DNA of 64,000 nucleotides from positions 54,249 to 118,248 of the forward strand of contig CAYUIF010000007.1 of NCBI GenBank assembly GCA_964444755.1, read 5' to 3'. This document shows positions 10,405 to 50,593 of this stretch, piece by piece (position 1 is the stretch's first letter; each line of letters begins with the position of its first letter). The position numbers were made by a program, and so were the translations under genes. The notes below the pieces were generated by a model, which saw nothing but the letters and a program-made list of their open reading frames with translations, had not been told where the DNA came from and searched no databases. The stretch comes from an uncultured Alphaproteobacteria bacterium (GTDB taxonomy: Bacteria > Electryoneota > RPQS01).

Positions 10405-10428
10405 TTCATTGATTCTTGAGGTAATACT

Positions 10429-13462: not shown

Positions 13463-13520
13463 TACGGGCGGCGAGCCGCCTGTTGGTTTGACTTTTTAAG
13501 TTTAAGTTTTCTCGTTTGTC

Positions 13521-13597
13521 GGGGTCGTAGTTCAGTTGGTTAGAACGCCAGCCTGTCACGTTGGAGGTCGCGGGTTCGAGCCCCGTCGGCCCCGCCA
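13521..13597 (+). tRNA. tRNA-Asp (anticodon GTC), CCA encoded
   Basis: GGGGTCG acceptor, anticodon arm CCAGC-CTGTCAC-GTTGG, T-loop TTCGAGC, ends GCCA. Confidence 0.97.
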
Positions 13598-13638
13598 AAG
13601 TTATAACGGTCAGAGTCTACTCTGACCGTTTTTCTTTT

Positions 13639-32975: not shown

Positions 32976-34924
32976 TGCCGTCAGCCAAGGGGGTTATCGT
33001 GCGTACCAAGACGTGGATCATGGCAGCATGTACGCTGCTGGGACTGACCGGAGGTATGAAACTGTGGCAATCAATGCGGGAGTCGCGAGATGTAGCGTCA
33101 GCCGAACGTGAAGAACGCCGTCACTCTGAAGAAACGGAGATGCCGATACGAATTTCCGATGCACCGGAGCGTTGGCTGCCCACTTCGTGGAATCGTTTGG
33201 ACGAAGTCGGAACCAATCGGCGGTGCAATCAAGATGTATTTTCGCAATGGCAAAACGAAACGCCGTGCGCAGCCAGTCCAGCCGATCCGGACGTTATTAT
33301 CGTCGGCGCTAACGATTTTTCGACGGGAAGCGTGATGGCTTCGTACTATCGAACCAGCGACGGGGGCCATTCGTGGCAGCATGCGTTCTCCGGACTCGGC
33401 CCGATCGGCAATGAATGCAGTTTTGCCGGGGATCCTTCCATCGCCGCCGATGCCACCGGAAGATTCTATGCGGTATTTTGCACATACGACTGCGAGTGGG
33501 GGCAGGGTATCTATTGCCAAACGTCCCGAGATAACGGTTGCTCGTGGGATAATCCGGTTTCCGTCGGGATTACCGGACCGGGCTATGTCGAAATTGACAA
33601 ACCGATGGTCGTGTGCGACTACGGTCCGGGATCCAGCTACGCTAATAATTGTTATGTTGTCTGGATGCAGATCATCGACGGCATGAGCGTTTACTTCTCC
33701 CGTTCAACCAACAACGGGAGATCTTTTTCAACACCGCTTCGGATATCATCTCAAAACAACTGCTGGTGTCCGAGCCTGGCCGTCGGTCCGGAAGGCCAGG
33801 TCTATGCGGCTTGGATTGGAATTGATCTGCGCAGCATTTTCTGCGACCGGTCTGTGAACGGCGGATTATCGTGGGGCAATGACATTCGGGTCACCACCTT
33901 TGCCGACAGCGTTTGGCCTGACAATCCCTGCGGAGAATTTCGAATCACTCATTATCCCGTGATTGCCTGCGACATTTCCGACAGCGACTATCGCGGTCAT
34001 ATTTATCTGTGCTGGGACATGAAAGACAACGCCGACGATGGCAATATCTATTTTTGCCGATCTACGAACGGCGGGCAAACGTGGTCGGACACCGCGCGAG
34101 TCAATGATGATGGAACCGTCCGCATGCAATGGTGGCCGTGGATCGCCGTCCATCCCCGAACCGGCGATATCGGTATTTCGTGGCTCGACCGGCGCGAGGA
34201 TCCCAACAATTGCAATTATTCCGTGTACGGCACCATCTCTACCGATGGCGGTGCAAGCTGGCTGCCGAATATGCGGATTTCCGACCAAATTCTTGATCCG
34301 TCCCGCAGCACTTTTTTAGGGGACTATACCGGCATAACCTATTCTAATCTCGGATTTGTCAGCGCGTGGACCGACACCCGTAACGACGAATGCGATGCCT
34401 ATGCCGCATGGTGGAATAACGGGGATCAATTAGCGATTCAATATCCCAACGGCGGCGAAATGTGGGGTACACAAGAAGCCTGCAGCGTGACCTGGACTTA
34501 CCGCTATGCTCCGGACACGCTGGATATTGAACTCAATCGCGACTACCCGAACGGGACATGGGAAAGGTTAGGAACCTTCCCCAGCGCCGCCGGTCAATGG
34601 ATTGGTGCTATTACCAGTGTGTGGTCCCCCACCGCACGAGTACGCATTATCGGCAATAACATACCGACAGTGGGAGATACTTCCGACGGCGATTTTTCGG
34701 TCGGTCCAATCGTACGGGGGGTTGTCGCTTCGCGGATCCGAAATGATATTCGCATCGGATGGTATAATTCCGGTGCTGCTTTCTACCGGATTTACAGTTC
34801 CCCAAGCTGCTGCGAATTCTTCACAACTCTGGAAGGCAGCACCAGCGACACGGTCTTTGTGGATTTTGGTGCGGTGTCTGAACCAGCCAAGTTTTACATC
34901 GTTCGCGCTTCAACACGACCATAA
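32975..34924 (+). CDS. Exported sialidase-like (BNR) propeller + PNGGE Ig-like domain + non-type-A C-terminal domain; start may be GTG 32999
   Basis: Asp-boxes TSDGGHSW, SRDNGCSW, STNNGRSF, SVNGGLSW, STNGGQTW, STDGGASW; FLGDY; YPNGGE; 67-aa tail ending KFYIVRASTRP. Confidence 0.82.
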   Translation: MPSAKGVIVRTKTWIMAACTLLGLTGGMKLWQSMRESRDVASAEREERRHSEETEMPIRISDAPERWLPTSWNRLDEVGTNRRCNQDVFSQWQNETPCAASPADPDVIIVGANDFSTGSVMASYYRTSDGGHSWQHAFSGLGPIGNECSFAGDPSIAADATGRFYAVFCTYDCEWGQGIYCQTSRDNGCSWDNPVSVGITGPGYVEIDKPMVVCDYGPGSSYANNCYVVWMQIIDGMSVYFSRSTNNGRSFSTPLRISSQNNCWCPSLAVGPEGQVYAAWIGIDLRSIFCDRSVNGGLSWGNDIRVTTFADSVWPDNPCGEFRITHYPVIACDISDSDYRGHIYLCWDMKDNADDGNIYFCRSTNGGQTWSDTARVNDDGTVRMQWWPWIAVHPRTGDIGISWLDRREDPNNCNYSVYGTISTDGGASWLPNMRISDQILDPSRSTFLGDYTGITYSNLGFVSAWTDTRNDECDAYAAWWNNGDQLAIQYPNGGEMWGTQEACSVTWTYRYAPDTLDIELNRDYPNGTWERLGTFPSAAGQWIGAITSVWSPTARVRIIGNNIPTVGDTSDGDFSVGPIVRGVVASRIRNDIRIGWYNSGAAFYRIYSSPSCCEFFTTLEGSTSDTVFVDFGAVSEPAKFYIVRASTRP

Positions 34925-34981
34925 ACCGGACACTATTTACCGTTCAGTAAGTGGACCAACTCCCGAATCATCCAGAATATT

Positions 34982-35015
34982 CAACAAAAGCCCCGGCACT
35001 GCGGGGTTTTTGTTG
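34982..35015 (+). terminator. Probable intrinsic terminator
   Basis: CAACAAAAGCCCC...GGGGTTTTTGTTG. Confidence 0.65.
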
Positions 35016-35106
35016 GTCATTCAACCTAAATGACCCTAACCGGAAGTGCGAAATCTCTGGCATATGTTTTGTACTTTAAAGTCTGAAATCTATTGCCACG
35101 AGACAG

Positions 35107-36108
35107 ATGATGTCGCGAATCCGAATTCTGACCGTTGAAGACGATACCCCCACCGCCACCCTGATCTACCGCTATCTGGACGATTTGGGGTATGACTGTG
35201 TGGGGATTGTTGCTTCCGGTGAAGAGGCGGTGATCGCCACAAGGGAAACGCAGCCAGACCTGATCCTGATGGATATCATGCTATCGGGAACGATGGATGG
35301 AATTGCGGCGGCCAAAGAAATCGAATTGCGATACGATATCCCCATCGTCTTCCTGACGGCACATGCCGATCATAATACGGTGGGACGCGCTAAACTGTCC
35401 AAAACTCACGGATACATTGTCAAACCGTTCGAGGAAAATTCGCTGCGGGCGGGAGTCGAGCTGGCATTATATCGCCACGCCATCGAAGGCGAATTGGTTC
35501 GACAACATAAGCGGCTGGATGCCACCCTGAACGGGATAGACGATTGCATAATGATCGCCGATGCCGCCGGGTCGTTGGTCTATATCAATCAAGCCGCCGC
35601 CGAATGTACCGGACTATCACCGGAAGCCGCCGAAGGTCAGCCGCTCAACGACATCATCGAATTTATCTATCGCAACGGGGGTGAACAAGTCATTAATCCG
35701 GTAGCCGAGGCATTCCTATCCGCAACTGAAAAAAAATCTCTTAAACACTATATTATGAAGACCGCCGGGGGCACGTTGGAGCATGTAGAAATGGCATCAC
35801 TGGCGTTGCGAGTGAACAACGGAATGTTATTGGGGGTTGCTCTGATCTTTCGTTTGATGCGCACCGATCTGCCCGGCGAACTTGAAGAACGAGTTCGCGA
35901 AGTCTATGGCACGGTATTCAACAATATTCAGAGTCTGGGCGGAGCCGTGGCGATCTGCGCATGGTGCAAGAAGATTAAAGACAGTTCGGGTAAATGGATT
36001 CCCGCCGACCCGTTTCTGCTGCGTTATGCCGGCCGGTGGATTACTCACGGCATTTGTCCGGAGTGCGAAGAACGGGTGATGATGGGTGAAACCGCATTGG
36101 AATCATAG
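35107..36108 (+). CDS. Response regulator: receiver + PAS + C-terminal Cys/His domain
   Basis: VEDD, ILMDIML, FLTA, VKPF receiver motifs; PAS (YINQAAAECTG); CAWCKKIKD...W...THGICPEC. Confidence 0.9.
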   Translation: MMSRIRILTVEDDTPTATLIYRYLDDLGYDCVGIVASGEEAVIATRETQPDLILMDIMLSGTMDGIAAAKEIELRYDIPIVFLTAHADHNTVGRAKLSKTHGYIVKPFEENSLRAGVELALYRHAIEGELVRQHKRLDATLNGIDDCIMIADAAGSLVYINQAAAECTGLSPEAAEGQPLNDIIEFIYRNGGEQVINPVAEAFLSATEKKSLKHYIMKTAGGTLEHVEMASLALRVNNGMLLGVALIFRLMRTDLPGELEERVREVYGTVFNNIQSLGGAVAICAWCKKIKDSSGKWIPADPFLLRYAGRWITHGICPECEERVMMGETALES

Positions 36109-36129
36109 CACATTTCAAAATCAGAAATA

Positions 36130-36162
36130 AAAAAGCGGAGCGTTTCAACGCTCCGCTTTTTC
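36130..36162. terminator. Bidirectional intrinsic terminator
   Basis: AAAAAGCGGAGCGTT/AACGCTCCGCTTTTT between convergent genes. Confidence 0.9.
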
Positions 36163-36178
36163 TTTTATCTTGAATTCG

Positions 36179-38092
36179 CTACTTACCCGCGTTGCTTTCA
36201 GCGATCCTTTGGTTCACGTAGTCGAGGATTTTCGGAATCTGCGCATCCGCCGTATCCAATTCAGCGGCATATTCCAACAACTCGCGGCCCTTATCGAGAC
36301 GGCCCTTGTCCAAGTAGCTTTGGGCCAGATAGACCAATTGGTAGGCATAATCCGGCACTTTGGCGGCCGCTTTTCGAACCAACGGCTCGGCCTCGTCCAA
36401 CCGCCCGGCCAACCGTAAAGCAACGGCATAGTTCAGTTCATAACGGATATTCCCGCTGACATCCGCCGCAGTCTTCCAGGCACGTATGCGATTTTCGAGA
36501 TCACCCACCGACTCGTAGTAGATTGCGATATTCTCCCAGCCGTAAGCCGAGCGTGAACGATCCAGATGCAGCAGCGTTTCATAGCGCTGCAGCGCCGGAC
36601 GAAGGAAAACCTGACCCAAGATATAGGGCACGGGAATCAATAGGACGAAACCCAACATCGCCGATAGAACAACATTGCGCGACGTTCCGAAATCGGCATG
36701 CGCCAACCGCCATGCTCCCCACAAAACCGTCGGCCACAAAGCCATGGCCAGTAAGTCCCAATCCCGGGCCATTCCCAAGTTGGGATTAAAGATCGCGACG
36801 AATGCCAAACCGCCCGTTGCGGCAACGGTCAGAAAACCGGATTGGACGTGCTCATAGATATTGCCGGATTTCGTGGGTCGTATCGTAAACAAGATGAGCG
36901 CAACCGGCAACAGAATCAAGACCGCCAAGTTGATCAAGTCAACGGCATGGGCCGTCGTTAGAACGGCGTAGCCGTCTTTGGACCAGTGCGGAAGGAGCGG
37001 CATGATCGAAACCCAGCCCTTCCACCCTTTCACGAAAATGTATCCACCGATACCGGCAATGGCTGATCCTGCCAAAATCCAGACCATGCGCTGGCGGGGA
37101 GCCGTTACGCGCTGTTCAGCTTCATCCGCCGCTTGAAAATGCAGATTATACAGCAAGTAGAGCAAAGCCGGCAATAGGATAAAATTCGACAGATGGAATC
37201 CGACCGCCAATCCGAAGGTGATAACGGATTTGACGGGAAATCGCCGCGGCGGAAAGGCATCGTCCAAACCGGCGATGAGAAAGGCCAGCATCGCCAGTGA
37301 CGCCCACGAGTAATTCTCGATATAACCGAAGAAGAGCAACATTCCGCTGCCGGTCAGAAGCGGAATTAAAAACTGGGCGCGGGATTCGGCAGGGAGGCGT
37401 CGCCGGGCAAACTGTAACGCCATAAAAACGAAGAGCGCACCGGCGGCAATCGAAAGATACGAATAGGTATTATACGCCACGCGTGTGAACCATTGATCAC
37501 GCCGCATATGCAGTTCTTTCGCCTGAGCGGCGGAGGTCGCCGGTGGATCAGGATTACGCATGGCCGCAGCGGCACGAAAGATCAACTCGTGCACACCCAG
37601 CTCAAGCGGTTCCTTGCGCATGAGAAAACGGGTTCCCGGAACATGCTGACCGCGCGCTTCGAACTGACCGATCCAGGCCAGCTCCTTAACCCAGAGCGGC
37701 CCGTCTCCCAAGAGCGGAACGGGGACTCGCAATAAAAGGAACACAATCGCTACAGCAATCGCCCACCAGACCGCCGAGCGGCTGATCAAGGGGCGCAATT
37801 GCACGGATAGTTTCGTAATCGTTCGCGAACCGACCGGCGTCCACAACAACAGGGCTGCAACCACTAAAGGAATACTTACCCATGCCGGCAGAAACGCCGG
37901 ATGATGGAATCCCCACACCCGCAAGTTGGGGAATACCCAAGCGATTATCACGGCCGCCGCCAGGACGAATCCGCCGATCCGCAATACAAGGAGCAGCCGC
38001 TGCGAATCGGCCGGATGGAGTGCCGCCGCAGGACGGACCGGTTTTATTTTAGCCGGGGAAATTACGGTGTGCTGTTTACGCTTCTTCGACAT
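36179..38092 (-). CDS. Multi-TM GT-C-like membrane protein with C-terminal TPRs
   Basis: About 11-12 TM segments, LLGDG and YIENYS acidic loops, RDWDL motif, terminal TPR helices. Confidence 0.65.
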   Translation of the reverse strand: MSKKRKQHTVISPAKIKPVRPAAALHPADSQRLLLVLRIGGFVLAAAVIIAWVFPNLRVWGFHHPAFLPAWVSIPLVVAALLLWTPVGSRTITKLSVQLRPLISRSAVWWAIAVAIVFLLLRVPVPLLGDGPLWVKELAWIGQFEARGQHVPGTRFLMRKEPLELGVHELIFRAAAAMRNPDPPATSAAQAKELHMRRDQWFTRVAYNTYSYLSIAAGALFVFMALQFARRRLPAESRAQFLIPLLTGSGMLLFFGYIENYSWASLAMLAFLIAGLDDAFPPRRFPVKSVITFGLAVGFHLSNFILLPALLYLLYNLHFQAADEAEQRVTAPRQRMVWILAGSAIAGIGGYIFVKGWKGWVSIMPLLPHWSKDGYAVLTTAHAVDLINLAVLILLPVALILFTIRPTKSGNIYEHVQSGFLTVAATGGLAFVAIFNPNLGMARDWDLLAMALWPTVLWGAWRLAHADFGTSRNVVLSAMLGFVLLIPVPYILGQVFLRPALQRYETLLHLDRSRSAYGWENIAIYYESVGDLENRIRAWKTAADVSGNIRYELNYAVALRLAGRLDEAEPLVRKAAAKVPDYAYQLVYLAQSYLDKGRLDKGRELLEYAAELDTADAQIPKILDYVNQRIAESNAGK

Positions 38093-39860
38093 TCACCGGT
38101 TCCGTGATTGCAGCATTGACATTCGGATCGTTAATATTTTTTCGGGCAGCCGGTTTGCTTGTGTAATCATTGATCAGCGTGTAAATCAGGAAATGTCCGA
38201 AGGCAATCGTATAAAAGAAACACCAGAATAATACGATCCAGGCCACCGGGCTGACGACGCGGTTGACAATCGAATGAAATAATGTCGAACCTACCACCAG
38301 TAATGCCAGGAAGATATATGTCTGCGGTCTCCGCCATGCGACGATTCCGCTTACGTTCAATGATTTCGGCGTAACATCGAATTTCGGAACCTTGCCCAGA
38401 AATCCGCGTACAACCGCCACCAAGTACACCGGCACGGTGTTGGCGAGAATCCCTTGAACCATCAGCATATTGCGCAACGAATAGCCCCGCAATTTCATGT
38501 GAATAAACGGGAACATCATGATCGCAACATAGAGCGGGTAGACAGACAGATACACCCACTCCAGCGGCCGTAATTGATAGTTAGCGACCAGCCCTTGACC
38601 GGTGCCGTATCTTACCGCCAACAACAACAAAATCGGCAGCGTCGCGAGCACGCCTAAAATTACCGTCATTGTATAGAATCCGGATGACCAGAGATACTCG
38701 ATCGCCACTTTTGCTGATGGCCGCTTATTCGGTTTACCGGTAAAAATCGAGCTAAGGACTTCCAGCAAAACGGTCGTTCCACCGATGGCCCAGCGGCGGT
38801 GTTGTTTCCAATAAGCGTATAAGGTCATCGGACCAACGCCGATGGCATAGGCGTGTCGAACGTACAACGAGCGCCAACCCCGGCAATGCATACGAAATGA
38901 AGTAGCCATATCTTCGGAAATGGAGCGTTCATCCCAGCCACCGACCTCATCTAAAGCACTCCAACGCATAACAAAGTTCGTACCACAGCACGTCGCCAAT
39001 TCAACCGAGCCTTTTCCCTCCAGAATCGTATCGTAATGCAGCGTTTCCTGCTGGGCCGCGGCGCGGCACACCAACGTCGAATCGGTGTTTTCATAAAGCT
39101 GCGCGGTTTGGACAAAGGCCAAGCCTTCATCCGCCTGCAGCAACGGGACAGTTCGCTCCAAAAACTCGGGTGCGACTTCCTGATCCGCGTCTAACACGGC
39201 CAGTAATTGCGGAGCCGGATTCAGCAACTTCATCGCATCGTTCAACGCCCGACCTTTGTTGCCGCGATTTCGGATGTGCATGATGTTTACGCCAAACTGC
39301 TTGCAGATCCGTTCCGCCTGTTTTTTGCTCTCCGGTTTGCGTGAATTTTCAGCCACCCATACTATCAGATTCGGGTAACGCAGCCGGCTGGCGCTGGCCA
39401 CGCTGCGTTGCAGAATATCGGGGTCCTCATCGCAGGCGGCAATCATAACGACGACTGACGGTGCCGGATTTTGCAGCGGGGGCACTTCGGGCAGGCGATA
39501 ACGCACGATTCCCCGCCAGCACTGAGTAAGAAAATGCGACCACTGAAAGAGAATCGTCAGTTCTCCAACGACGAGGATCAGCAATCCAACGGCGTGCGCC
39601 AAGTCGTGCCAACTGGAAAACACCTGCGCCGGGTTGGACAATTTCGTCGCCGCATATTTGAAAAACGGCCACCGCAGCGATTGAACAAAAATGAAAACTC
39701 CGAAAATCACACCGAACCAAAGCCCCACTGTTCGTCGCAGCGCCGCCGGACGGCGAAATTCTCTGAACGTCTCATTGATGCGGCTTTTACCGCGATAGAA
39801 AACGCCGATTAACAACGTAAAAGTCAGCAAAACGGTCAGCGGGAAAACGGAGTAGAGCAC
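38076..39860 (-). CDS. Processive GT2 glycosyltransferase, cellulose synthase-like, without PilZ
   Basis: D, DAD (LDADQ), SED and QHRRW (QxxRW) motifs; FVQTAQ, CCGTNF, VTPK; flanking TM helices. Confidence 0.9.
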   Translation of the reverse strand: MLYSVFPLTVLLTFTLLIGVFYRGKSRINETFREFRRPAALRRTVGLWFGVIFGVFIFVQSLRWPFFKYAATKLSNPAQVFSSWHDLAHAVGLLILVVGELTILFQWSHFLTQCWRGIVRYRLPEVPPLQNPAPSVVVMIAACDEDPDILQRSVASASRLRYPNLIVWVAENSRKPESKKQAERICKQFGVNIMHIRNRGNKGRALNDAMKLLNPAPQLLAVLDADQEVAPEFLERTVPLLQADEGLAFVQTAQLYENTDSTLVCRAAAQQETLHYDTILEGKGSVELATCCGTNFVMRWSALDEVGGWDERSISEDMATSFRMHCRGWRSLYVRHAYAIGVGPMTLYAYWKQHRRWAIGGTTVLLEVLSSIFTGKPNKRPSAKVAIEYLWSSGFYTMTVILGVLATLPILLLLAVRYGTGQGLVANYQLRPLEWVYLSVYPLYVAIMMFPFIHMKLRGYSLRNMLMVQGILANTVPVYLVAVVRGFLGKVPKFDVTPKSLNVSGIVAWRRPQTYIFLALLVVGSTLFHSIVNRVVSPVAWIVLFWCFFYTIAFGHFLIYTLINDYTSKPAARKNINDPNVNAAITEPVNVEEA

Positions 39861-39922
39861 GCCAAATCTCGCAGCTTATAGACTTGAAGGGACAACGGGG
39901 AAGGTTCAATATACGGTATTAT

Positions 39923-41452
39923 CTATCTTGTGTCAACAGCCGTAGCGGAATTTTCCGTATCTTCCGGAACCTGCTTCCAATAGGTGCGGAGCCGGATTTC
40001 AGCGATCCAAAAGGCACCGGGGTTGCGCCGCAGACGCTCGGTGATGTTGGTTTCGCCACCGGAAAAGTGATGATCCGAGATCCGCGCCAGCAGCGAATCA
40101 AGTCGAGTATCCGGGCGCTTGACATAGGATTCGACTAAAACGACGGACGCGGCCGTATCGATTTCCGCAGGAAATCGTTTGCCGTACTGCGGTGCAAGTA
40201 CTGTCACATTTGCGGGTTGCCGAAAATAGTAATTAAATACATCTTTCGTGTAGGGGGCGTATAAAACCACCGTGCCACCCATGCGTGTTTGTTCAGCAAC
40301 GGCTTCGGCCGTTGTCCGCCATGGATCTTTGTCCGCTAAAGCATAATATGGGTAGAGAACGTAGACAGAAAGCGCAAGAAAGACCGTTAAAACAGAATAC
40401 CGGACGTACCGCCCCAATAACGATAACGACCAGCCGATGAGGATCATCACCGCTGTCAGGGCAGGAATCGTGTAACGATCCACGTAAACGGGCGATGCAA
40501 CCAGCGATTCGAGCCACGGAACGACAACGAATCCCCCGATCACGATCAACAAAATATATATCTTCCGGCGATCCGATTTACGCCGCCAGCCGATCCATAG
40601 TCCCGCGAGAATGATCACGGCTGCTGTCATCCCCAGCGGAAATTGCATAAAGTAAGTATTGAATGTGTACAGCGGCGCAATCAGAGAAGGTTTGACAATC
40701 CAGGATGCTCTTCCGACACCGTGGATTTTTTCGATGATCGAGTTGGACTGCAAAAGCAGTTGCGGAACATAAAAAATCGCTGCGAGTACTCCGATGCGAA
40801 TGATCCGCCACGTTTCCGGTTTCGCCGCCGGAAAGGCCTCATCACTGCGCAGAACCAGCAACAGCAGCAAATGAATGGGCAGCAGCAGCGGCCCTAACGG
40901 CTGCGTGTAAAGTGCGAGAACCGTAAAGAACAGGTAGGCCGCAATCCGCCATCGGGTAATCCCCTTCAGAAGCCGCAGCAACGCCGCCAGTGAAAATGCG
41001 GTTGCAGCCAAAAACAGCGAATAAGGCCGGGCATCCTGCGAATAGAAGATCGCAAAGGGATTGACGGCCAGCAATAGGGCACTGAGTAACGCTGCATTTC
41101 GATCAAATACCAGTCGCGCAAACTGATAAACCGCTCCTACCGCGAGTATTCCGAAGATAACCGAGAGAAAACGCAGCGAAAATTCGGAAGTGCCAAAACC
41201 GCGGCACCACAACCACTCGGCGCAATAATAGGCAATCCCCTGTGTTTCGTGCCGCATCTCGGAGAGTAGCGCCATGAAGGTTCCGTGCGCCCGCCGGGCG
41301 GTGAACCCTTCATCAAGCCATAGACTTTCACTACCTAAGTCGAATATTCGCAGACCGGCGGCAAGCAGAAGAATCGCCAATAGGTAGTATCGGGAATGGT
41401 TCATAGTGACCGGAAGGACAAGTGATTCGAATAACTCGAACACATGACGCAA
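39923..41452 (-). CDS. GT39/ArnT family (PMT-like) membrane glycosyltransferase
   Basis: SLWLDEGF, SEFSLRFLS, FYSQDARPYSL, RYTIPAL, DPWR. Confidence 0.88.
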   Translation of the reverse strand: MRHVFELFESLVLPVTMNHSRYYLLAILLLAAGLRIFDLGSESLWLDEGFTARRAHGTFMALLSEMRHETQGIAYYCAEWLWCRGFGTSEFSLRFLSVIFGILAVGAVYQFARLVFDRNAALLSALLLAVNPFAIFYSQDARPYSLFLAATAFSLAALLRLLKGITRWRIAAYLFFTVLALYTQPLGPLLLPIHLLLLLVLRSDEAFPAAKPETWRIIRIGVLAAIFYVPQLLLQSNSIIEKIHGVGRASWIVKPSLIAPLYTFNTYFMQFPLGMTAAVIILAGLWIGWRRKSDRRKIYILLIVIGGFVVVPWLESLVASPVYVDRYTIPALTAVMILIGWSLSLLGRYVRYSVLTVFLALSVYVLYPYYALADKDPWRTTAEAVAEQTRMGGTVVLYAPYTKDVFNYYFRQPANVTVLAPQYGKRFPAEIDTAASVVLVESYVKRPDTRLDSLLARISDHHFSGGETNITERLRRNPGAFWIAEIRLRTYWKQVPEDTENSATAVDTR

Positions 41453-41686
41453 GATAGTCCGATCCTACCATAATTTCAAGCAGTAGGTGATAAAACACCA
41501 AGAAGATTAAGGAAATACATGAACCGATGACTTATTGCTGACTTGTCGCGAGTGAATAATCCAGAAAACAGCTTGCATTTACCGGAGATTGGAGGTATCT
41601 TTTTGCATAGTTTGTGGATGTTCGACTGCTGAAGTCTGCGCGGATCACATGTTAACCAACTTCAGCATATTCAGATATTAAGGAGA

Positions 41687-44600
41687 TTGTTTTCGATGTT
41701 CAGTCTTAAAACTCGGTCAAATCTGGGTAGTAGCCTGCAAATCTGGGTAGTGTGTCTGGCGGTATTATTCGGCCTTTCAATAATCAATCCGGCCAGCGCC
41801 CAAATCAGCGCCGGTGGTATTCCCCCATCTTTTGCCAAAACGCTGACGGCCGCGGTTCCGACCATCGCAATGCCCGCGATTGATGTGGCGGCCTATCTGG
41901 CGGAAGACGAAGCCGCCGGGAAGGATGTTGCCTATCGTTTCGGAGCACCCATTGAGGTCTCATACAACCTGAATAACTCTGGTACCTGGTCCGATCTGCC
42001 GGAAGGCGGCCGGGTTTGGCGGCTGCGCATCGAATCCAGCGGCGCTTATTCCATCGGCTTGCTCTATGATCAATGGTATATTCCCGAAGGCGGCGGACTG
42101 TTCATCTATAACGACGACCGCAGTCAGGTCATTGGAGCCTTCACGAGTTTCAACAACTGGACAGATGGCACGAACATCACGCAGCCGGTAGCTGGTGATG
42201 CTACGATTTTGGAATACTACGAACCGGCATCCGTTACTGGACAAGGTGTCCTCGCGATTTCCCGCGTGGTTCACGCTTATCGCAATTTATTCGGCAGAGG
42301 CAATCTGGATAATTACGGCGATTCCGGTTCGTGCAATAACAATGTGAATTGCCCGGAAGGAGCGGATTGGCAGCGCGAGAAGCGCGGTGTGGCTATGATT
42401 CTCTCCGGCGGATCCCGGATCTGCAGCGGTTCGCTGATTAACAACACGAACAACGATTACACACCCTATTTTCTCACTGCCAATCATTGTTTAGGCGGCG
42501 AGACATCGTGGGTGTTCATGTTCAACTATGAAAGTCCCGGTTGTACGAACCAGAACGGTCCGACCAATCAAACCGTCGCCAATGCCACACGCCGTGCGAC
42601 GGATACGCCGTCCGACTTTGCGCTGCTGCAGCTTTCGAGTTCGATTCCGCTCACATATAATCCGTACTTCAACGGCTGGAATCGCGTAGATTCCGCCGGC
42701 ACCAATTCAGTTGGCATCCACCATCCATCGGGCGACATCAAGAAGATCAGCTTTGATGACAATCCGCCGGTGAGCGATCGTTATTTAGGTTCCTCCGGGG
42801 TCGCGAACTCCCACTGGAAGATCGTGCGCTGGGATGACGGCACCACCGAAGGCGGCTCCTCCGGTTCGCCGCTGTTCGATCAGAATCATCGCATTATCGG
42901 CCAACTGCACGGCGGCTATGCATCCTGCACGAGCTTGACTCCCGATTGGTACGGAAAATTCCAAATGTCGTGGGCCTACGGCAGCAGCCCTTCCACCCGC
43001 CTGCGGGATTGGCTCGATCCGGGCAATCTGGATGTGATGGTGCTGGACGGCGTGGATCCCAATGTTACGAGCCGGATCGGCGGAACGGTGACCGGCCAGA
43101 ATGCGCTGCCGCTCGCCGGCGTTCGGGTGGGCGTAATTGGCGGAACGCGCGAAACCTATACCGATTCATCGGGCAACTACTTGCTGGGAATGGTCGAAGG
43201 AACTTACAACATCGAATTTACCAAGTTCGGTTATGAACGCGTGGTCGTCAATAACGTGGTGGTCATGGAAAATGACACGACATGGGTAGACGCAACGCTG
43301 AACGCCGTTCCGGAAGGCGTGCTGCGGGGCACGGTCGCCACACAAATCGGACAGGGTATTCAAGGGGCGCGGGTCTATATTCGCAACACTCCCTATGACA
43401 CGCTGACCACCGACGAGAACGGACAGTTCACCCTTGAACTGCCTGCCACCGATTTTGAAGTCTATGCGGTGGTGGTATTCAATGCCGACCCGGTAGTGGT
43501 TCTGGAAACCGATACGGTATTAACGATTGCCGCGGGCGATACGACCTTTGCCACGATTGAAATGTTCGTTGAATTCATCGAGCCGACTGATCCCGATGCT
43601 TATGGCTATCGCGGCTATGATCGCTACGACCGTGATCTGCCCGCCGATTACGAGTGGGTGGAACTCGATCCGCTATACGGCAACGAAGGCATCGAGTTCT
43701 TCTATCCGCATCAGGATTCGGCGATATTCATTCCGACGCCGTTCCCCATTTGTTTCTATGGCAACGAATCGGATACTCTGACCGTCAATGCCAACGGCTG
43801 GATGCTGCCGGGAGTGCATCATGAACCGGGTAATCGTAACTTCCCGATTCCTTACAATGCACCCACCGATCCGCCGGGTATCATCGCTCCCTTCTGGGGC
43901 GATATCCGCACCGGCTTAGGCGAGCAGCAATTTATGGAATATGACTCGGCGGGCGGTCGCTGGATTCTGGAATTCATCAATCAGCGGTTGGCATCGTCCA
44001 TGAGCCATTATCAGAATTGGGAAGTGCAATTCCTCGATCCGGCGTTCTATCCGACGCTCACCGGCGACTGCGAATTCCAATTCGTCTATGGCCAGATGGA
44101 CGGTATTTTAGGCAGCACCATCGGCATCGAAGCGCCTTCCGAGCAGACCGGAATTCAGATTGCCTATAACGGCGGTTTGAACAGCACGTGCTGGCCGATT
44201 GAAGACGGCGCGGCAATTCGCTTCACCACCGGGCACGCTGCCGAAACAGGCAGCATTGCCGGAACGTTGATTCTGCATCCCTCCACCGGCAATATCACGG
44301 GGGCGGTGGTTCGCACCGCCGGAGTTGAGATGTCTCCCAATATGGCGGGCGCGTTTTCATCCGATGCCATTCCCGCCTGTGCGGCCAGTGCATTGCTGGC
44401 GCTGCCCGGTTATGAACAGACCCGCTTGAACCATGTGCGGGTGGCGGCGGACTCGACTACGAACTTGACCATCGAAGCGTGGCGGCTCGATCCGCCCCGC
44501 GAGTTGGGTTCTTCAACCGCTGGAGATGTAGTAGGGCTATGGTGGCGAGTTCCGCTGTCCGTGGAAGACGCACCCAATCCCGACGTGCGCTACACGGTCT

Positions 44601-45043
44601 ATCGCGACGGCGAACTGATCAGCGAAATGGTGGCCGATACATTCTTTGTGGATGACAATTTCCCGGTGACGGAATCGGCCGTCTATACGGTTGTAGCCCA
44701 TTATCGTTGGGGAGTATCATTGCCTTCGGAAGGCTTAACGGTATCACTGGCAACTGATGATATTCAGACAGCCTTACCCACCGTGTTTGCGTTGAAGGCA
44801 AACTATCCCAATCCGTTCAATCCGACAACCACCATTGCCTTCGATCTGCCGCAGCGGAGCCAGGTGCGGCTGACGGTTTTCGATGTAACGGGCCGGGAAG
44901 TGGCAACGCTCACCGACCAAACCATGTCCGCCGGAAGCTATAGCGTGGTGTGGAATGCCGCCGGATTGCCCAGCGGCATGTATATGACGGTGATGGAAGC
45001 GGGCGATCACCGCTTCGTACAGAAGATGCTGCTTCTGAAATAG
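41687..45043 (+). CDS. Secreted lysyl-endopeptidase-like S1 serine protease with carboxypeptidase-regulatory-like, FN3 and T9SS type A domains
   Basis: Signal peptide, pro-domain, GDSGSCNNNVNC, TANHC, SDFALL, HHPSGD, GGSSGSP; tail ANYPNPFNP...QKMLLLK. Confidence 0.9.
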   Translation: MFSMFSLKTRSNLGSSLQIWVVCLAVLFGLSIINPASAQISAGGIPPSFAKTLTAAVPTIAMPAIDVAAYLAEDEAAGKDVAYRFGAPIEVSYNLNNSGTWSDLPEGGRVWRLRIESSGAYSIGLLYDQWYIPEGGGLFIYNDDRSQVIGAFTSFNNWTDGTNITQPVAGDATILEYYEPASVTGQGVLAISRVVHAYRNLFGRGNLDNYGDSGSCNNNVNCPEGADWQREKRGVAMILSGGSRICSGSLINNTNNDYTPYFLTANHCLGGETSWVFMFNYESPGCTNQNGPTNQTVANATRRATDTPSDFALLQLSSSIPLTYNPYFNGWNRVDSAGTNSVGIHHPSGDIKKISFDDNPPVSDRYLGSSGVANSHWKIVRWDDGTTEGGSSGSPLFDQNHRIIGQLHGGYASCTSLTPDWYGKFQMSWAYGSSPSTRLRDWLDPGNLDVMVLDGVDPNVTSRIGGTVTGQNALPLAGVRVGVIGGTRETYTDSSGNYLLGMVEGTYNIEFTKFGYERVVVNNVVVMENDTTWVDATLNAVPEGVLRGTVATQIGQGIQGARVYIRNTPYDTLTTDENGQFTLELPATDFEVYAVVVFNADPVVVLETDTVLTIAAGDTTFATIEMFVEFIEPTDPDAYGYRGYDRYDRDLPADYEWVELDPLYGNEGIEFFYPHQDSAIFIPTPFPICFYGNESDTLTVNANGWMLPGVHHEPGNRNFPIPYNAPTDPPGIIAPFWGDIRTGLGEQQFMEYDSAGGRWILEFINQRLASSMSHYQNWEVQFLDPAFYPTLTGDCEFQFVYGQMDGILGSTIGIEAPSEQTGIQIAYNGGLNSTCWPIEDGAAIRFTTGHAAETGSIAGTLILHPSTGNITGAVVRTAGVEMSPNMAGAFSSDAIPACAASALLALPGYEQTRLNHVRVAADSTTNLTIEAWRLDPPRELGSSTAGDVVGLWWRVPLSVEDAPNPDVRYTVYRDGELISEMVADTFFVDDNFPVTESAVYTVVAHYRWGVSLPSEGLTVSLATDDIQTALPTVFALKANYPNPFNPTTTIAFDLPQRSQVRLTVFDVTGREVATLTDQTMSAGSYSVVWNAAGLPSGMYMTVMEAGDHRFVQKMLLLK

Positions 45044-45063
45044 CCTTACAGTTCATTCGACAG

Positions 45064-45094
45064 AAAAACCTCGGCGCCAGCCGAGGTTTTTTTT
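45064..45094 (+). terminator. Intrinsic terminator
   Basis: AAAAACCTCGGC/GCCGAGGTTTTT plus T-run. Confidence 0.88.
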
Positions 45095-45133
45095 ATTCCG
45101 GTGAAGCGAGGATGCTCCGCTCGGCGAAAACAT

Positions 45134-45341
45134 GGGTGACTCTGGAGAGTCACCACCGGGAAAAACGATGGGGAGTGGTAAGCCGGGCAGGCTGAGAGCC
45201 TGCCGCGGCGAGAACAGTGTTCCGGGCACCCGAGGACGGGTGCCTTGGCGGCTTCGGTAGGTTGCTTGTAGCGGCGGCACGTGCCCCACGTGCCCCGCCT
45301 ACTGCGTACTGCCGTGCGGCACTACATCCGCCGTGGCGGAT
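45134..45341. repeat. REP-like palindrome cluster B
   Basis: 45134-45156 matches 14073-14095 (22/23); 45220-45249 is the reverse complement of 13693-13722 (27/30); GTAG...CTAC hairpin 45268-45302; ATCCGCCGTGGCGGAT 45326-45341. Confidence 0.8.
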
Positions 45342-45351
45342 TTCCCCAAGT

Positions 45352-46680
45352 TCACTTGGTGATGGTGATTGTCAATGTTGCTTTCTCGGTTTGGGATAGG
45401 CCAACAACGGCGAAATACTTGCCTGCAGGCAAGGGCGGCAGCCTGAGATCGCAGGAGCCGCTGCCCGCTTTTAGAGGAAGCACTGCCAGTCGTTGCCCAA
45501 GAATATTATAGAGAGTCACTTCGTTTGCGCTAACCGGCAGCCCGGATATAAAGACTCGATCCCGTGCCGGATTGGGAAATGTTATCAGCATCTGGGATGA
45601 TGCACTGGAAGCTCTTGCACCGACGGAAACTGTGTCTGCGATTGTGTAAGAGTAAATCCCTCCGATAGATGTGGTAAGCCACAGCTCTCGGTCGAGGGAC
45701 GACACGAGCGCGAGGACGTTGCTTCCCCCGATAGGCAGACCTTGGGCGAGTTCGAGCCAGCTTGCACCTCCGGAAGTCGAATGATATACGTGGGTGGTTA
45801 TCGCGGCGAATAATTCTCCCGGTGTCTGCGGGGATACTACAACTGCCTGACCGTGACCGAGATGCGGCGGGAATGTCGTATCTGGCTCGATCCAAGTTGC
45901 GCCCGTGTCGGGGGTGTAAACAAAGTTCAGGAACCTTAACACCCATATGCCATTGGGCTGAAAGGGGTCAGGAGCAATGTCGGCCACCGCATTAATATTA
46001 GGAGTCGCTCGGAACGACGATCCATTGTCGTCACTGATTTGCACTCCTTCAAGGTTATAGGAAGAGGCGTAAATCCGGTTTTCCACCAAAGAATCGTAGA
46101 AAACACGCATCAGGGTCAGCCACGGGTCCACATTGAACCAGCTCGCACCTGCGTTTGTAGTCTTATATGTCCAACCCTGTCCCATATCGCCCCGTGCACT
46201 GGCGATGACCTCGTTCGGATTGGTGGGATTGATGGCAGCGGCCACGACGGCAAAATTGTCGGGTCCACCGAGGGGCAGATTGCTGCTTCGGTTTTCCCAA
46301 TGGATTCCGCCATCATGGCTGCGAACAATACCTGCAGTACCATTTGCCAGCCATAGCGTGTCCGGATGATGAAGATCAATGTCTATGTCAAATACATTCG
46401 AGTGCCGGAATCCCAGCGTATCCCACGTCAGCCCATGGTTAGTGGTCACAAAGAGTCCACCCTCGCGCGTCGAGTCCCAGAAGACATCCAGTGCCGACGC
46501 ATAGATGGTATTCGGATTGGTTGGACTCACTTCGATATCGGTAATTTCCTCCGGTGCCAAACCCACATAAGTCCACTCGTTGATACCAGCGTTGACTTCA
46601 CTCGCAGCAAACCAATAGGAGAGACACAGAAATGTTAAAATCCCGAAGGAATATGCCTGTTGTCTATTGCTCATACACAT
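45352..46680 (-). CDS. Secreted BNR/Ycf48-like beta-propeller protein with T9SS type A C-terminal domain
   Basis: Asp-boxes TTNHGLTW, SHDGGIHW, TTNAGASW, SDDNGSSF, STSGGASW; tail TFPNPARD...YNILGQ...GKYFAVV. Confidence 0.82.
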   Translation of the reverse strand: MCMSNRQQAYSFGILTFLCLSYWFAASEVNAGINEWTYVGLAPEEITDIEVSPTNPNTIYASALDVFWDSTREGGLFVTTNHGLTWDTLGFRHSNVFDIDIDLHHPDTLWLANGTAGIVRSHDGGIHWENRSSNLPLGGPDNFAVVAAAINPTNPNEVIASARGDMGQGWTYKTTNAGASWFNVDPWLTLMRVFYDSLVENRIYASSYNLEGVQISDDNGSSFRATPNINAVADIAPDPFQPNGIWVLRFLNFVYTPDTGATWIEPDTTFPPHLGHGQAVVVSPQTPGELFAAITTHVYHSTSGGASWLELAQGLPIGGSNVLALVSSLDRELWLTTSIGGIYSYTIADTVSVGARASSASSQMLITFPNPARDRVFISGLPVSANEVTLYNILGQRLAVLPLKAGSGSCDLRLPPLPAGKYFAVVGLSQTEKATLTITITK

Positions 46681-46818
46681 AGTACTCTAAATGGCATGGC
46701 CTCGCCACCACCCGGCAGCAAGGCTTGAGAATTCTCTCTATAATTATAGGATTCCTCATAGCATCGCAATTAGTTTCAATAAGAATATAGTATCGGGAAA
46801 CAAAGAAGTCAACAAAGA

Positions 46819-46983
46819 TTCCGGGCAGATCAGGGGATCTGCCTCAGTGAAAAGCCCGGCAAGCCGGGCGCTACCCAAAAAGGGCATAGCACGCTGTGCC
46901 CCTACGGGAACGCGGCGGCATGTGAAGCCACATGCTGCCGCGCCAATCGCGGGCGGGTTCCACTGCATTCAACCCGCCCCTAC
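46819..46983. repeat. REP-like palindrome cluster C
   Basis: 46819-46845 matches 14023-14048 with one indel; minus-strand GTAGGGGCACAGCGTGCTATGCCC and GTAGGGGCGGGTT...AACCCGCCC hairpins. Confidence 0.8.
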
Positions 46984-47019
46984 CCAGATCCGGCCATAAT
47001 GAATAATGGCCCTTCTCAA

Positions 47020-47055
47020 AAACAAACACCCCGGCATAAACCGGGGTGTTTGTTT
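47020..47055 (-). terminator. Intrinsic terminator of the second protease gene
   Basis: 15-bp stem AAACAAACACCCCGG/CCGGGGTGTTTGTTT. Confidence 0.85.
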
Positions 47056-47073
47056 AGACGATAATTCGGTCGT

Positions 47074-50000
47074 TTAGGGCGTAGTGGATGAATAAACGAC
47101 GTAGAACTTGATGCCTTCGCCAACGGCGCCGGAATCGGTAAAGGTGGTTTCGTCGGCGGTGCCTTCAAACGTGGTGTACGGACCTTCCGCGACAGTGGAA
47201 CTGTATACGCGGTAATACGGCGCGCCGGTATCGTTCCAATGCAGAATGATGTCGTTGCCGCTAACCGCCGCCACCACTTCCGGGGCACTCATGGGGAAGC
47301 CGCTGACACGAATCAGGCGATTGCCCGGCCGCGCGGAACTGTGAGCCGCCAGTTCGTCTACCCACATTTCCTCGCACGGATCGTAGACCACCGACCGCCC
47401 CGCCCGCACGCTGGAGGTATCGTGCAGGAACGATTCGTACTTGCCGATCTCGGGATTGGAAACCGCCACATAAAAATCGTCTTCCAAAATCAACGGATCA
47501 CCGGCTACATCGCGGAACAGCACGGTTGCCCATGCTGCCGGATCAGCCATCAAACCGCCGATGACATTGCCGACACTGCCGATGGTCTTGGTCATCACCA
47601 ACGTGCCGGGCATATTGCCGACACCGTCCGCCAAGTATAATTCAATCGTAATCGGAGAATGCGTGGAGTCAGGATTGACCGCCGAAACGCCGATGCGGCC
47701 TTCGCATAGCATGTACGGCATGGTTCCGGCATCGAACTTCACCGCCCAGCGATAATCCACCGCATACGACCAGTTGCTGAGTTCAGCCACACCGTCGTCG
47801 TAGACTTGCTCGGTACCGCAGGCTTCGCCGACTTCAAACGTGTAAACATCAGTCGTCGCCGTCAAACCGCCGGCGTCAATCGTCCGCAGGAAATAATCGT
47901 ACTTCCCGGCGGTCAAGGAACTGATCGTGGCCGCGTACTCATCGGGATAGCCCGTGGCGCTTAAGGCGAGCGAATCGTAGGTGGCCGATGTGGTCAGCTT
48001 GTACACAAAGCGCGTCACAAAGCCGCCGAAATCATCGTAAACCATCGCGGTAACGGTGAAGGGACCGGTCTCTTGATCATCCAATTGATCATGCAGCAGA
48101 ACGGGCGTTTGATTAGCCGGGAGAATCGTGAAATTCGCATCCGATTCGTCCGTGGCCACCACATAGCTTACGCTGGAAACACGCACGCGGGCGGTGCTGC
48201 TGACGGGCAGGTTTACCAGCCACGGATATAGTCCGGTATTGGAGATGCCGCCGGCCAACACTTCCCACGTGCCGCCGGGATAGCTGCGATTCAACTCCAC
48301 ATTGACATTGCCGGATACGTTCTGCGAAGTCCACGTGATGTTATGAGTCGTACCGTCCACCCACGCCTCGCCGCCGTTGGGAGATGTGACCGTAATCGTG
48401 CGTTCGGCAATCGTGAAATTGGCGTTGGAGACGTCGCTCACGGTCGTGTGGGTCACTCCACTCACGCGAATGCGCGCCGCCGACGTGACGGGAGTGGACA
48501 CGGTCCATGAATGGGAACCGTCATCAGCCGTACTGGAAATGATCGTTTCCCACGCGCCGCCGGAGTAGCTGCGATTGAGTTCGATCTTAACATTTTCCGT
48601 AAGATACTGCGACGTCCACGTGATGGTGCCGATATCGCCCGCATACCACGTTTCGCCGCCGTTGGGAGCCGTCACCGTAATTGAACGGGCGGCAATGGTA
48701 AAGTTGGCATTGGAAATATCGGTCACGGTGGTTTGCGTCACGCCGCTGATCCGCACCCGCGCCGCCGTGGTCGTCGGCGACGTCACCGTCCACGCGTAAG
48801 AGCCGTCATTGGCCGTGCTGGCGACGATGGTTTCCCACGTTCCGCCGGAATAGCTGCGGTTGATTTCGATCTTCACATTTTCCGAAATATTCTGCGACGT
48901 CCACGTGATGTTGTAGGAATCATCCACCAGCATGGTTTCGCCGCCATTGGGCGCGGTAACGGTAATGGAAGCGACCGAGCCGTCCAAACCGTCCAGCGTG
49001 TTGGGAGCGGCATTATCGGGATCGAGCCAGTCCTTCAGACGGGTCGCAGCCGTCGAACCGTAATCCCAAGACATGGAAAACTTGCCGTACCAGTCGGCGG
49101 TCAGGCTTGTACACGACGCATATCCGCCGTGAAGCTGCCCGGTGATGCGATGGTTTTGATCGAACAGCGGCGAGCCGGAGGAGCCGCCTTCGGTCGTGCC
49201 GTCATCCCACTGCACGATTTTCCAATGCGAATTGGCAACTCCGGACGTACCCAAATAGCGATCACTCACCGCTGCATTGTTATCGAAACTGATCTTCTTG
49301 ATATCGCCCGACGGATGGTGGATGCCAACTGAACTGGTGGCGGCGGTGTTCACGCGGTTCCAGCCGTTGAAAAAAGGATTGTAGCTGGACGGCACATTGG
49401 AACCCAGTTGCAGCAACGCGAAGTCCGATGCCGTATTCGTCGCGCGCAGGGTGGCATTGGCTACGGTCTGTGTCGTGGGGCCGTTGGCGTTGGTACACGT
49501 GGGACTTTCATAGTTGAACATGAATACCCACGACGTCTCGCCGCCCAGGCAGTGATTGGCCGTTAAAAAATAGGGTGTTTGATCCTGCCGCACGTTGTTA
49601 ACAAGCGATCCCGAACAGATGCGATAGCCGCCGTCGAGAATCATCGCGACGCCGCGTTTCTGAGTCTGCCAGGTGGCGCCTTCCGGACAGTTCACATTAT
49701 TGTTGCAGGAACCAGAATCGCCATAGTTGTCCAAATTCCCATACCCGAACAGATTCCGGTAGGCGTGCACCACTCGCGAAATCGAAAGAACGCCTTGTCC
49801 GCGGACGGTTGCAGGTTCGTAATATTCGAGGGTTACACCGTCGCCCGGCACCGGCTGCGTGATATTCGTTCCATCCACCCAGTTGTTGAAACTGGTAAAA
49901 GCTCCGATGACAAAACTGCGGTCGTCATTATAAATGAACAGATCCGCGCCTTCGGGAATGTACCACTGGTCGTAGGTGAAACCAATAGAATAGGCTCCCG

Positions 50001-50307: not shown

Positions 50308-50593
50308 CCGTTTCCTTTCACAACATGAATCATCTTGTCCGGAGCGGGTGCACAATGCGGATTTCACAAACAGCCGGATTCTAAATTTGGATAGTACCAT
50401 AATATAGAGACACGATCCGCGATTGTCAATTACTTTATCAGCCTCGGAAATTTAACTGCGCAGGACAATCGGCGCGGGTCATGAATGCATCTATTGAATA
50501 TCCATCATGCCTAAACCAATAAGGCTATGGAAATCAGATTCAAATGGAAAATCATTACTAACCGACCAAGAGCATGGAATAGTCAGGAGTGAA

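What the first reader, a model, noticed from the sequence alone, without database searches (positions are those of the whole stretch)
34721..47277. Shared 67-aa C-terminal domain on two different secreted proteins: candidate second sorting signal
Seen: the last 67 residues of the sialidase-like protein (34721-34921) and of the second protease (47077-47277, minus) align without gaps, 32/67 identical by hand: VVA...NDI...W...GA..YR.YSS.......TT.EG....T.F.D.GAV.E..KFY.V..ST.P-stop. Both end at the same position and both follow PNGGE Ig-like domains, while their catalytic domains are unrelated. Neither has the YPNPFN type A tail found on five other proteins here. Established: T9SS uses interchangeable ~70-100-aa Ig-like tails (types A, B, C). 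Inference: an FN3-like tail acting as an undescribed T9SS CTD class or surface-anchoring signal.
Basis: partly seen in the sequence, partly recalled or inferred. Interest (0 to 1): 0.82.

Follow-up and report, generated by a model that had tools for sequence, protein, structure and literature searches.

The report
Strictly C-terminal truncated FN3-like tail
Two unrelated secreted enzymes in this window end in the same ~70-residue module, an FN3-like domain cut off before its last strand; related uncultured bacteria always carry it at the very end of secreted hydrolases, so it is probably an undescribed export or surface-anchoring tag, though this is unproven.

Summary
In detail: the two tails are 32/67 identical with no gaps (BLASTP E=4e-14). 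It also generalises. A tail profile finds two classes of relatives. The first is a high-scoring class (59-127 bits). It holds 36 protein hits and 39 ORFs in 31 fetched loci plus the window. Every member is single-copy and ends 0-3 residues from the stop codon. The second is 1,220 internal tandem FN3-like repeats in giant proteins, all at 43 bits or less.

The tail is homologous to bacterial Fn3-like domains (PDB 3MPC, E=2e-7) but stops just after strand F, so the FG loop and G strand are missing.

None of 35 tails matches a Pfam or NCBIfam model. A profile-profile comparison with the local T9SS type A CTDs is negative.

Carriers have signal peptides and are typical T9SS-cargo enzymes (C25 with propeptide, C10, S8, M10, M14, S1, BNR). 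They come from MAGs labelled Calditrichaeota or KSB1 that also encode type A CTD proteins, often in the next gene. Two enzyme families have neighbouring paralogs, one ending in a type A CTD and the other in this tail.

A sorting or anchoring role is plausible, but it rests on architecture alone.

The parts
34715..34921 (+). C-terminal FN3-like tail of the BNR/sialidase-like protein (aa 581-649); stop codon at 34922-34924
   Evidence: 96 bits against the tail HMM, ends at the last residue.
47077..47286 (-). C-terminal FN3-like tail of the S1 protease paralog 2 (aa 1039-1108); stop codon at 47074-47076
   Evidence: 105 bits, ends at the last residue. AF2 predicts six strands, with the last ending 3 aa before the C-terminus.
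32975..34924 (+). Gene for the 649-aa BNR/Asp-box beta-propeller (sialidase-like) protein: hydrophobic N-terminal signal/anchor, one PNGGE Ig-like domain (about 34430-34708), then the tail
   Evidence: (BNR_2 at 29.6 bits, just under the cut-off). Orthologs with the same architecture are in L001, L023 and L030.
47074..50400 (-). Gene for the S1 (Trypsin_2) protease paralog 2. The likely true start is Met32 (nt 50307), followed by a signal peptide; then three PNGGE Ig-like repeats (about 48118-48966), the X module and the tail
47287..48117 (-). X module (aa about 762-1038): a conserved, uncurated Ig-like plus jelly-roll pair that precedes the tail in many carriers (motif ...C..CK.GNR[LM]IRA.G[YF])
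   Evidence: 18 homologs found, and all 17 with a complete C-terminus end in the tail. AF2 gives pLDDT 90.6 and pTM 0.86. Foldseek finds generic beta-sandwich/CBM/FN3 arrays. No Pfam hit.
41687..45043 (+). S1 protease paralog 1: about 64-66% identical to paralog 2 over the first ~560-590 aa, but it ends in a T9SS type A CTD (aa 1035-1118, nt 44789-45040)
   Evidence: (Por_Secre_tail 36.8 bits).
47018..47055 (-). Terminator-like hairpin 19 nt after the stop of protease 2
   Evidence: 16-bp stem, -27.4 kcal/mol, followed by a T run.

Best explanation
The tail is a lineage-restricted C-terminal module of about 70 aa. It derives from the bacterial 'Y-x-V-Y-R-S' type of Fn3-like repeat by loss of the FG loop and G strand. 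The consensus is ..P..VV..R.GNDI.L.W...GAPYYRIYS.....GPF.TLEGST.DT.FTD.GA......KFY.V.SST.P-stop.

It has been shuffled onto the 3' ends of many genes for Sec-exported hydrolases in FCB-group bacteria labelled Calditrichaeota or KSB1.

My preferred mechanism is inferred, not shown. After Sec export, the folded six-stranded sandwich at the extreme C-terminus acts as an address tag. It would direct outer-membrane export and/or cell-surface retention, most likely through the T9SS these organisms possess, in parallel with the type A CTD. The exposed edge of strand F and the conserved terminal ...SSTxP would form the recognition surface. Paralogs with a type A CTD versus this tail would then be routed or anchored differently.
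For: Shown:
1. Real similarity, E=4e-14.
2. Strict terminality. All 36 domains scoring 80 bits or more among the top 150 of an exhaustive 1.8-billion-protein search end 0-3 aa from the C-terminus, while 1,220 internal repeats score 43 bits or less. All 17 genome loci and all 11 metagenome loci have the tail running into the stop. All 39 locus ORFs scoring 59 bits or more end 0-2 aa from the C-terminus.
3. The tail follows at least five unrelated kinds of preceding domain: BNR propeller, PNGGE Ig, MAM-like, X module and beta-propeller.
4. The carried enzyme families are C25 with Propeptide_C25, C10, S8, M10+PPC, M14, M23, S1, EEP, Sortilin/BNR and Omp28. None has Por_Secre_tail.
5. 35/38 full-length carriers have a signal-peptide-like N-terminus.
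6. Several tail proteins occur per genome or population, and tandem clusters exist (L023 has three, L001 three, L018 two).
7. Type A CTD genes lie in the same genomes, often adjacent.
8. Alternative-end paralogs exist. The window S1 proteases are 64% identical over 590 aa. Adjacent, divergently transcribed M10 paralogs in L005/L006/L007/L022 are 37-44% identical over ~370-480 aa. PNGGE repeats precede both kinds of end.
9. No curated family covers the tail.

Background: T9SS signals are C-terminal beta-sandwich domains of several unrelated sequence classes (PMC10202324, PMC10994853).
Against: - There is no evidence of any physical or genetic link to T9SS components. No PorV-, PorU- or PorP-like gene recurs near tail genes, and neighbours are housekeeping genes or orthologous synteny.
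- There is no sequence or profile similarity to type A CTDs, and the predicted fold has six strands, not seven.
- In the protease the tail is modelled with a short linker and a fixed orientation against the X module (pTM 0.86). All 17 X-module homologs with a complete C-terminus carry the tail. That could mean X plus tail is one structural or binding unit rather than a detachable signal.
- Mutual exclusivity with type A CTDs is trivial, because both must be terminal.
- The score range between 43 and about 59 bits was not sampled, since only the top 150 proteins were listed.
Confidence: 0.42

Rival explanations
1. It is an ordinary accessory domain. The truncated FN3-like module would be a structural cap, spacer or ligand- or cell-surface-binding domain of extracellular hydrolases. 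It would sit at the C-terminus only because a G-strand-less FN3 cannot be followed by another domain. It would play no part in export.
For: - It is clearly homologous to ordinary Fn3-like domains of carbohydrate-active enzymes (3MPC/5G56, E=2e-7 and 3.5e-6).
- Its distant relatives are internal repeats.
- AF2 packs it rigidly on a CBM-like jelly-roll.
- X module and tail always co-occur in the X-module family.
- No dedicated partner gene is seen.
Against: About 75 independent occurrences across at least five kinds of preceding domain, none internal, is unusual for a generic FN3/CBM-type domain. The end point and last residue are conserved (...FY.V.SST.P-stop). Paralog pairs in which the tail occupies exactly the architectural slot of a type A CTD occur in two enzyme families.
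Confidence: 0.38
2. It is an incomplete-fold docking module. The missing G strand would be supplied in trans by a strand of an outer-membrane or surface anchor protein, or by another tail-bearing subunit. This donor-strand-type beta-completion would tether or oligomerise the enzymes on the cell surface, whichever secretion route they take.
For: The domain ends 3-5 residues after strand F in every member, whereas internal relatives continue with ...VNAAGESGNSNQASAT (FG loop plus G strand). Both AF2 models give six strands. The F strand and terminus are strongly conserved.
Against: This is purely structural inference. Model coordinates could not be inspected, so the F-strand edge may be covered in cis by the preceding domain. 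The isolated tail is still modelled as a compact sandwich (pLDDT 73). No candidate donor protein was identified.
Confidence: 0.12
3. It is an artefact. The two tails would be remnants of genes truncated by frameshift, assembly error or pseudogenisation, with the true C-terminus (for example a type A CTD) lost.
For: One ortholog (L001) carries an in-frame TGA upstream of the tail.
Against: No CTD-like continuation exists in any frame downstream, and terminator hairpins follow both stops. The same end point recurs in about 75 sequences from independent assemblies.
Confidence: 0.01

Closest known systems
T9SS type A C-terminal sorting domain (Pfam PF18962 Por_Secre_tail / TIGR04183)
   Same: It is an extreme C-terminal beta-sandwich of about 70-85 aa on Sec-signal-bearing secreted hydrolases of FCB-group bacteria. 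There are several copies per genome, and the carried enzyme families are the same (C25, C10, M14, S8...). It occupies the same architectural slot in paralog pairs.
   Different: There is no HMM match and hhalign gives probability 0.4%. The tail has no YPNPFN-type or terminal K-x-hydrophobic-K motifs. It is predicted to have six strands, not seven (PMC10994853). T9SS dependence is untested.
T9SS type B (PF13585/TIGR04131) and type C (ChiA-like, cl41395) CTDs
   Same: They are precedents for sequence-unrelated C-terminal T9SS signals (PMC10202324).
   Different: No Pfam or NCBIfam match was found. Type B cargo genes are usually clustered with a cognate PorP/SprF gene, and no such recurrent neighbour was seen here.
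Bacterial Fn3-like domains, e.g. the Fn3 of Clostridium thermocellum CtXyl5A (PDB 3MPC, 5G56) and tandem FN3-like repeats of giant surface proteins
   Same: Sequence homology is detectable (E=2e-7 over strands A-F). The fold is the same by Foldseek. The W / Y-x-[VI]-Y / T-x-[FY]-x-D / [FY]-Y-x-V signature is shared.
   Different: The known domains are complete seven-strand modules, usually internal or tandem. The tail lacks the FG loop and G strand, is single-copy and always terminal, has its own signature (GAPYYRIYS, LEGST, KFY.V.SST.P-stop), and scores 59-127 bits against 43 bits or less for ordinary repeats. Pfam fn3 does not detect it.

Membership tests
T9SS type A CTD (PF18962/TIGR04183) | Match to the family HMM or conserved motifs | tested here: not met
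   0 hits for the 2 window tails at E<=1 and for 35 tails at E<=0.1 in Pfam and NCBIfam. hhalign against 10 local type A CTDs gives probability 0.4%.
T9SS type A CTD (PF18962/TIGR04183) | Located at the extreme C-terminus of a protein with an N-terminal Sec signal | tested here: met
   all tails end 0-3 aa from the end; 35/38 have a signal-peptide-like N-terminus, by a heuristic.
T9SS type A CTD (PF18962/TIGR04183) | Seven-stranded beta-sandwich | tested here: not met
   AF2 models give six strands, with the chain ending 3 aa after the sixth. This is a prediction only.
T9SS type A CTD (PF18962/TIGR04183) | T9SS-dependent export, PorV binding, PorU cleavage | not testable with these tools
   This needs genetics or proteomics in a host of this lineage, or complex modelling.
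T9SS type B CTD (PF13585/TIGR04131) | HMM match, and a cognate PorP/SprF gene clustered with the cargo gene | tested here: not met
   No HMM hit. Gene families shared between non-orthologous tail loci are only response regulators, and the sampled neighbours look like housekeeping genes by inspection of their sequences. Not every neighbour was profiled.
T9SS type C CTD (ChiA-like, cl41395) | Sequence match to the ChiA-type C-terminal region | tested here: inconclusive
   No NCBIfam or Pfam hit, but I could not verify that a type C model is in these libraries.
Fibronectin type III-like domain (bacterial Fn3-like, e.g. 3MPC) | Sequence and fold homology to FN3 | tested here: met
   Profile against PDB: 3mpc_A at E=2.2e-7 and 5g56_A at 3.5e-6. 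The Foldseek top 50 are FN3 domains/monobodies, probability 1.0. Pfam PF00041 itself does not hit.
Fibronectin type III-like domain (bacterial Fn3-like, e.g. 3MPC) | Complete A-B-C-C'-E-F-G seven-strand module | tested here: not met
   The alignment covers residues 13-76 of the 103-residue 3MPC chain. Internal relatives continue with an FG loop and G strand, while the tails stop after F. The models have six strands.

The most novel reading that the evidence does not exclude
The G-strand-less FN3 tail is a fourth, lineage-specific class of outer-membrane export or surface-attachment signal, either a new T9SS CTD type or the tag of an unrecognised pathway. It would be read by beta-strand completion of its open F edge by a dedicated receptor or anchor. 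Paralogous enzymes with a type A CTD versus this tail would be sent to different fates, for example released versus cell-bound.
Probability: 0.3. Interest if true: 0.8.

Novelty: new variant of a known kind. Interest (0 to 1): 0.6.

Why it matters
If the tail is an address tag, it extends the repertoire of T9SS-type (or other) sorting signals beyond Bacteroidota into uncultured FCB phyla. Secretome prediction would otherwise miss a whole set of large proteases, nucleases and glycosidase-like enzymes that these sediment and subsurface bacteria probably use to degrade polymers outside the cell.

It would also be an example of a signal evolving from a common repeat domain by deletion of one strand. 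It gives curators a clean new C-terminal family to model.

If the tail is only a structural cap, the finding is still a well-defined new FN3 subfamily together with a new ~280-aa module. Its biological weight would then be modest.

Tried and rejected
- Word-indexed protein searches with the tail returned only short fragments. They were of little use for architecture, and the exhaustive search was needed.
It was repeated with 9 closer tails, so only tails containing GAPYYR[VI]YS were sampled.
- The window's BNR protein is not on record in the contig index, so no longer source contig or sample could be obtained.
- I tested whether the window's two BNR proteins (tail versus type A CTD) are a swap pair. 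They share only repeat-level similarity.
- I tested whether the genes downstream of protease 2 in the window and in L004 are orthologs with swapped ends. They are unrelated.
- I looked for a conserved partner gene near tail genes. I found only orthologous synteny, response regulators and housekeeping genes.
- Literature searches for T9SS in Calditrichota/KSB1 or for an FN3-type CTD found nothing relevant.
- Truncation or frameshift artefact was rejected.
Full report
**1. Observation**

BLASTP of the two full proteins aligns these ends without gaps: 32/67 identical, E=4e-14. tblastn finds no third copy in the window.

The stops are real gene ends. No frame continues into a CTD-like sequence, and each stop is followed by a strong terminator-like hairpin.

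- The first carrier is a 649-aa BNR/Asp-box propeller protein with a hydrophobic N-terminus and one PNGGE Ig-like domain immediately before the tail.
- The second carrier is an S1 (Trypsin_2) protease with a signal peptide (from Met32) and three PNGGE repeats. A further ~280 aa lies between those repeats and the tail, so 'both follow PNGGE domains' is only half right.
- Five other window proteins carry Por_Secre_tail, four above threshold and one at 24 bits.

**2. What the tail is**

No Pfam or NCBIfam model matches it. This holds for the two window tails at E<=1 and for 35 tails at E<=0.1.

A profile of nine tails hits the Fn3-like domain of C. thermocellum CtXyl5A (3mpc_A at E=2.2e-7; 5g56_A at E=3.5e-6). 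The alignment covers residues 13-76 of the 103-residue chain, i.e. strands A to F.

AlphaFold2 gives a six-stranded sandwich:
- tail alone: pLDDT 73;
- within the last 349 aa of the protease: pLDDT 90.6, pTM 0.86, with the last strand ending 3 residues before the C-terminus.

Foldseek's best PDB matches to the isolated tail are FN3 domains and monobodies. The tail is therefore an FN3-like domain lacking the FG loop and G strand.

**3. Distribution**

The exhaustive profile search of 1.84 billion representatives gave 3,242 hits at E<=1e-3 and 737 at E<=1e-10. Re-scoring the 150 listed proteins domain by domain shows two classes:
- 36 domains of 80-127 bits, always single-copy and ending 0-3 residues from the protein's end;
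- 1,220 internal domains of 43 bits or less (median 17), in giant proteins with up to 43 tandem copies. These continue after strand F with a typical FG loop and G strand (...VNAAGESGNSNQASAT).

Caveat: only the top 150 proteins were listed, so single-domain proteins scoring roughly 43-87 bits were not seen in that search.

Independent DNA-level sampling with the pattern GAPYYR[VI]YS found 17 loci in GTDB species genomes and 11 in metagenomes. In all 28 the tail runs into the stop codon.

An HMM scan of every ORF in the held loci plus the window (444 kb) found 39 ORFs of 59 bits or more, all ending 0-2 residues from the C-terminus. These include tandem clusters (three in L023, three in L001, two in L018). 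More divergent terminal FN3-like variants also turned up (L009:2-2518, L025:2-598, L004:2451-3872).

The genomes are MAGs labelled Calditrichaeota, candidate division KSB1 or just 'bacterium'. Some are labelled Alphaproteobacteria or Puniceispirillum, but their loci are syntenic with the Calditrichaeota/KSB1 ones.

**4. Carriers**

By a simple heuristic, 35 of 38 apparently full-length carriers have a signal-peptide-like N-terminus.

Pfam identifies the following heads:
- Peptidase_C25 with Propeptide_C25
- C10
- S8
- M10+PPC
- M14 plus a MAM-like domain
- M23
- S1
- Exo_endo_phos
- Sortilin/BNR
- Omp28

None contains Por_Secre_tail.

The tail follows at least five unrelated kinds of domain. 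In many carriers, including the window protease, it follows a conserved, uncurated module (X). All 17 X-module homologs with a complete C-terminus end in the tail. X is modelled as an Ig-like domain plus a jelly-roll.

**5. Relation to the T9SS**

Type A CTD genes occur in the same genomes, often as the next gene (window; L005-L007, L010, L021, L022, L027).

Two enzyme families show neighbouring paralogs with alternative ends:
- the window's S1 proteases: 64-66% identity over 560-590 aa, type A CTD versus PNGGE-X-tail;
- divergently transcribed M10 proteases in L005/L006/L007/L022: 37-44% identity over ~370-480 aa.

PNGGE repeats precede either kind of end (L027:2806-5010 is type A).

Against a direct relationship:
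- hhalign of tails against local type A CTDs is negative, probability 0.4%;
- no gene family recurs beside tail genes apart from orthologous synteny and response regulators;
- known CTDs have seven strands (PMC10994853);
- the tail is modelled as fixed onto X.

According to PMC10202324, the described CTD classes are A (PF18962), B (PF13585, with clustered PorP/SprF genes) and C (ChiA-like). The tail fits none of these.

**6. Interpretation**

Shown: there is a new, strictly C-terminal, truncated-FN3 family on secreted hydrolases of a T9SS-type lineage, occupying the slot of a CTD.

Inferred: it acts as an export and/or surface-anchoring tag, most likely coupled to the T9SS (confidence 0.42). 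The main rival is a terminal structural or binding cap with no sorting role (0.38). A docking module completed by a donor strand is a mechanistic variant (0.12). An artefact is excluded (0.01).

**7. Novelty and verdict**

The tail is absent from the copies of Pfam and NCBIfam searched here, and I found no literature on it. It is best called a new variant of a known kind: a C-terminal beta-sandwich end module of secreted proteins.

Noticed in passing
window 47287-48117 (-); also L004-L028 carriers: There is a conserved, uncurated module of about 280 aa (Ig-like domain plus jelly-roll, motifs YDDG.AE..NW, GS.GNVIGG, C...W..E, GNR[LM]IRA.G[YF]). In all 17 homologs with a complete C-terminus it is followed by the tail. 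The AF2 model is very confident (pLDDT 90.6). Its first domain resembles the Ig-like domain of P. gingivalis PPAD in Foldseek (ranks 44-49).
   Followed up: partly
window 36179-41452 (-): Between the two tail genes lies a cluster of envelope glycosylation genes. It holds a TPR protein with a weak, sub-threshold TMEM260-like O-mannosyltransferase match, a GT2 (cellulose-synthase-like) and a PMT_2 GT-C transferase. A GT4 and a probable sugar dehydrogenase (unprofiled; inferred from its sequence) lie at 50594-53216. A possible link to glycosylation of the Ser/Thr-rich Ig-like domains or tails was not examined.
   Followed up: no
L001 1-5223 (JGI Ga0265316_10015744): The ortholog of the window's BNR-tail gene carries an in-frame TGA where the window has Arg (...SSA*LRIVG versus ...TARVRIIG). 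The same sequence appears in three assemblies. The locus holds three BNR-tail paralogs, some apparently fragmented.
   Followed up: partly
L009:2-2518, L025:2-598, L004:2451-3872, L010:17177-18880: More divergent C-terminal FN3-like ends were found (for example on a protein whose sequence looks C25-peptidase-like). They score only 15-26 bits with the tail HMM and end within 17-29 aa of the domain match, one (L004:2451-3872) by inspection just after an F-like strand. The tail family may therefore be broader than sampled.
   Followed up: partly
L005, L008, L014-L016, L020: MAG records titled 'uncultured Alphaproteobacteria' or 'Candidatus Puniceispirillum' are gene-for-gene syntenic with loci from MAGs titled Calditrichaeota, KSB1 or 'bacterium'. 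The alphaproteobacterial labels look wrong.
   Followed up: partly
window 13385-13950: Two tRNA genes (13385-13459 and 13521-13594) are followed by a G+C-rich stretch with a 49-nt direct repeat (13695/13884) and GGGGGG-rich 21-mers. The 137-aa ORF at 13561-13974 is probably spurious.
   Followed up: no
window 47074-50400 (-), 5' end: The longest ORF of protease 2 starts 31 codons upstream of a canonical signal peptide (MKLAIRFLMASAMILVLCHGSFAQ). The real start is probably Met32, at nt 50307.
   Followed up: partly
window 8902-12948 (+): An OmpA-family protein (500 aa) lies next to an 839-aa S49 (SppA-like) peptidase. The peptidase has a ~550-aa N-terminal extension of unknown type that begins with a signal peptide. 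Neither was examined further.
   Followed up: no
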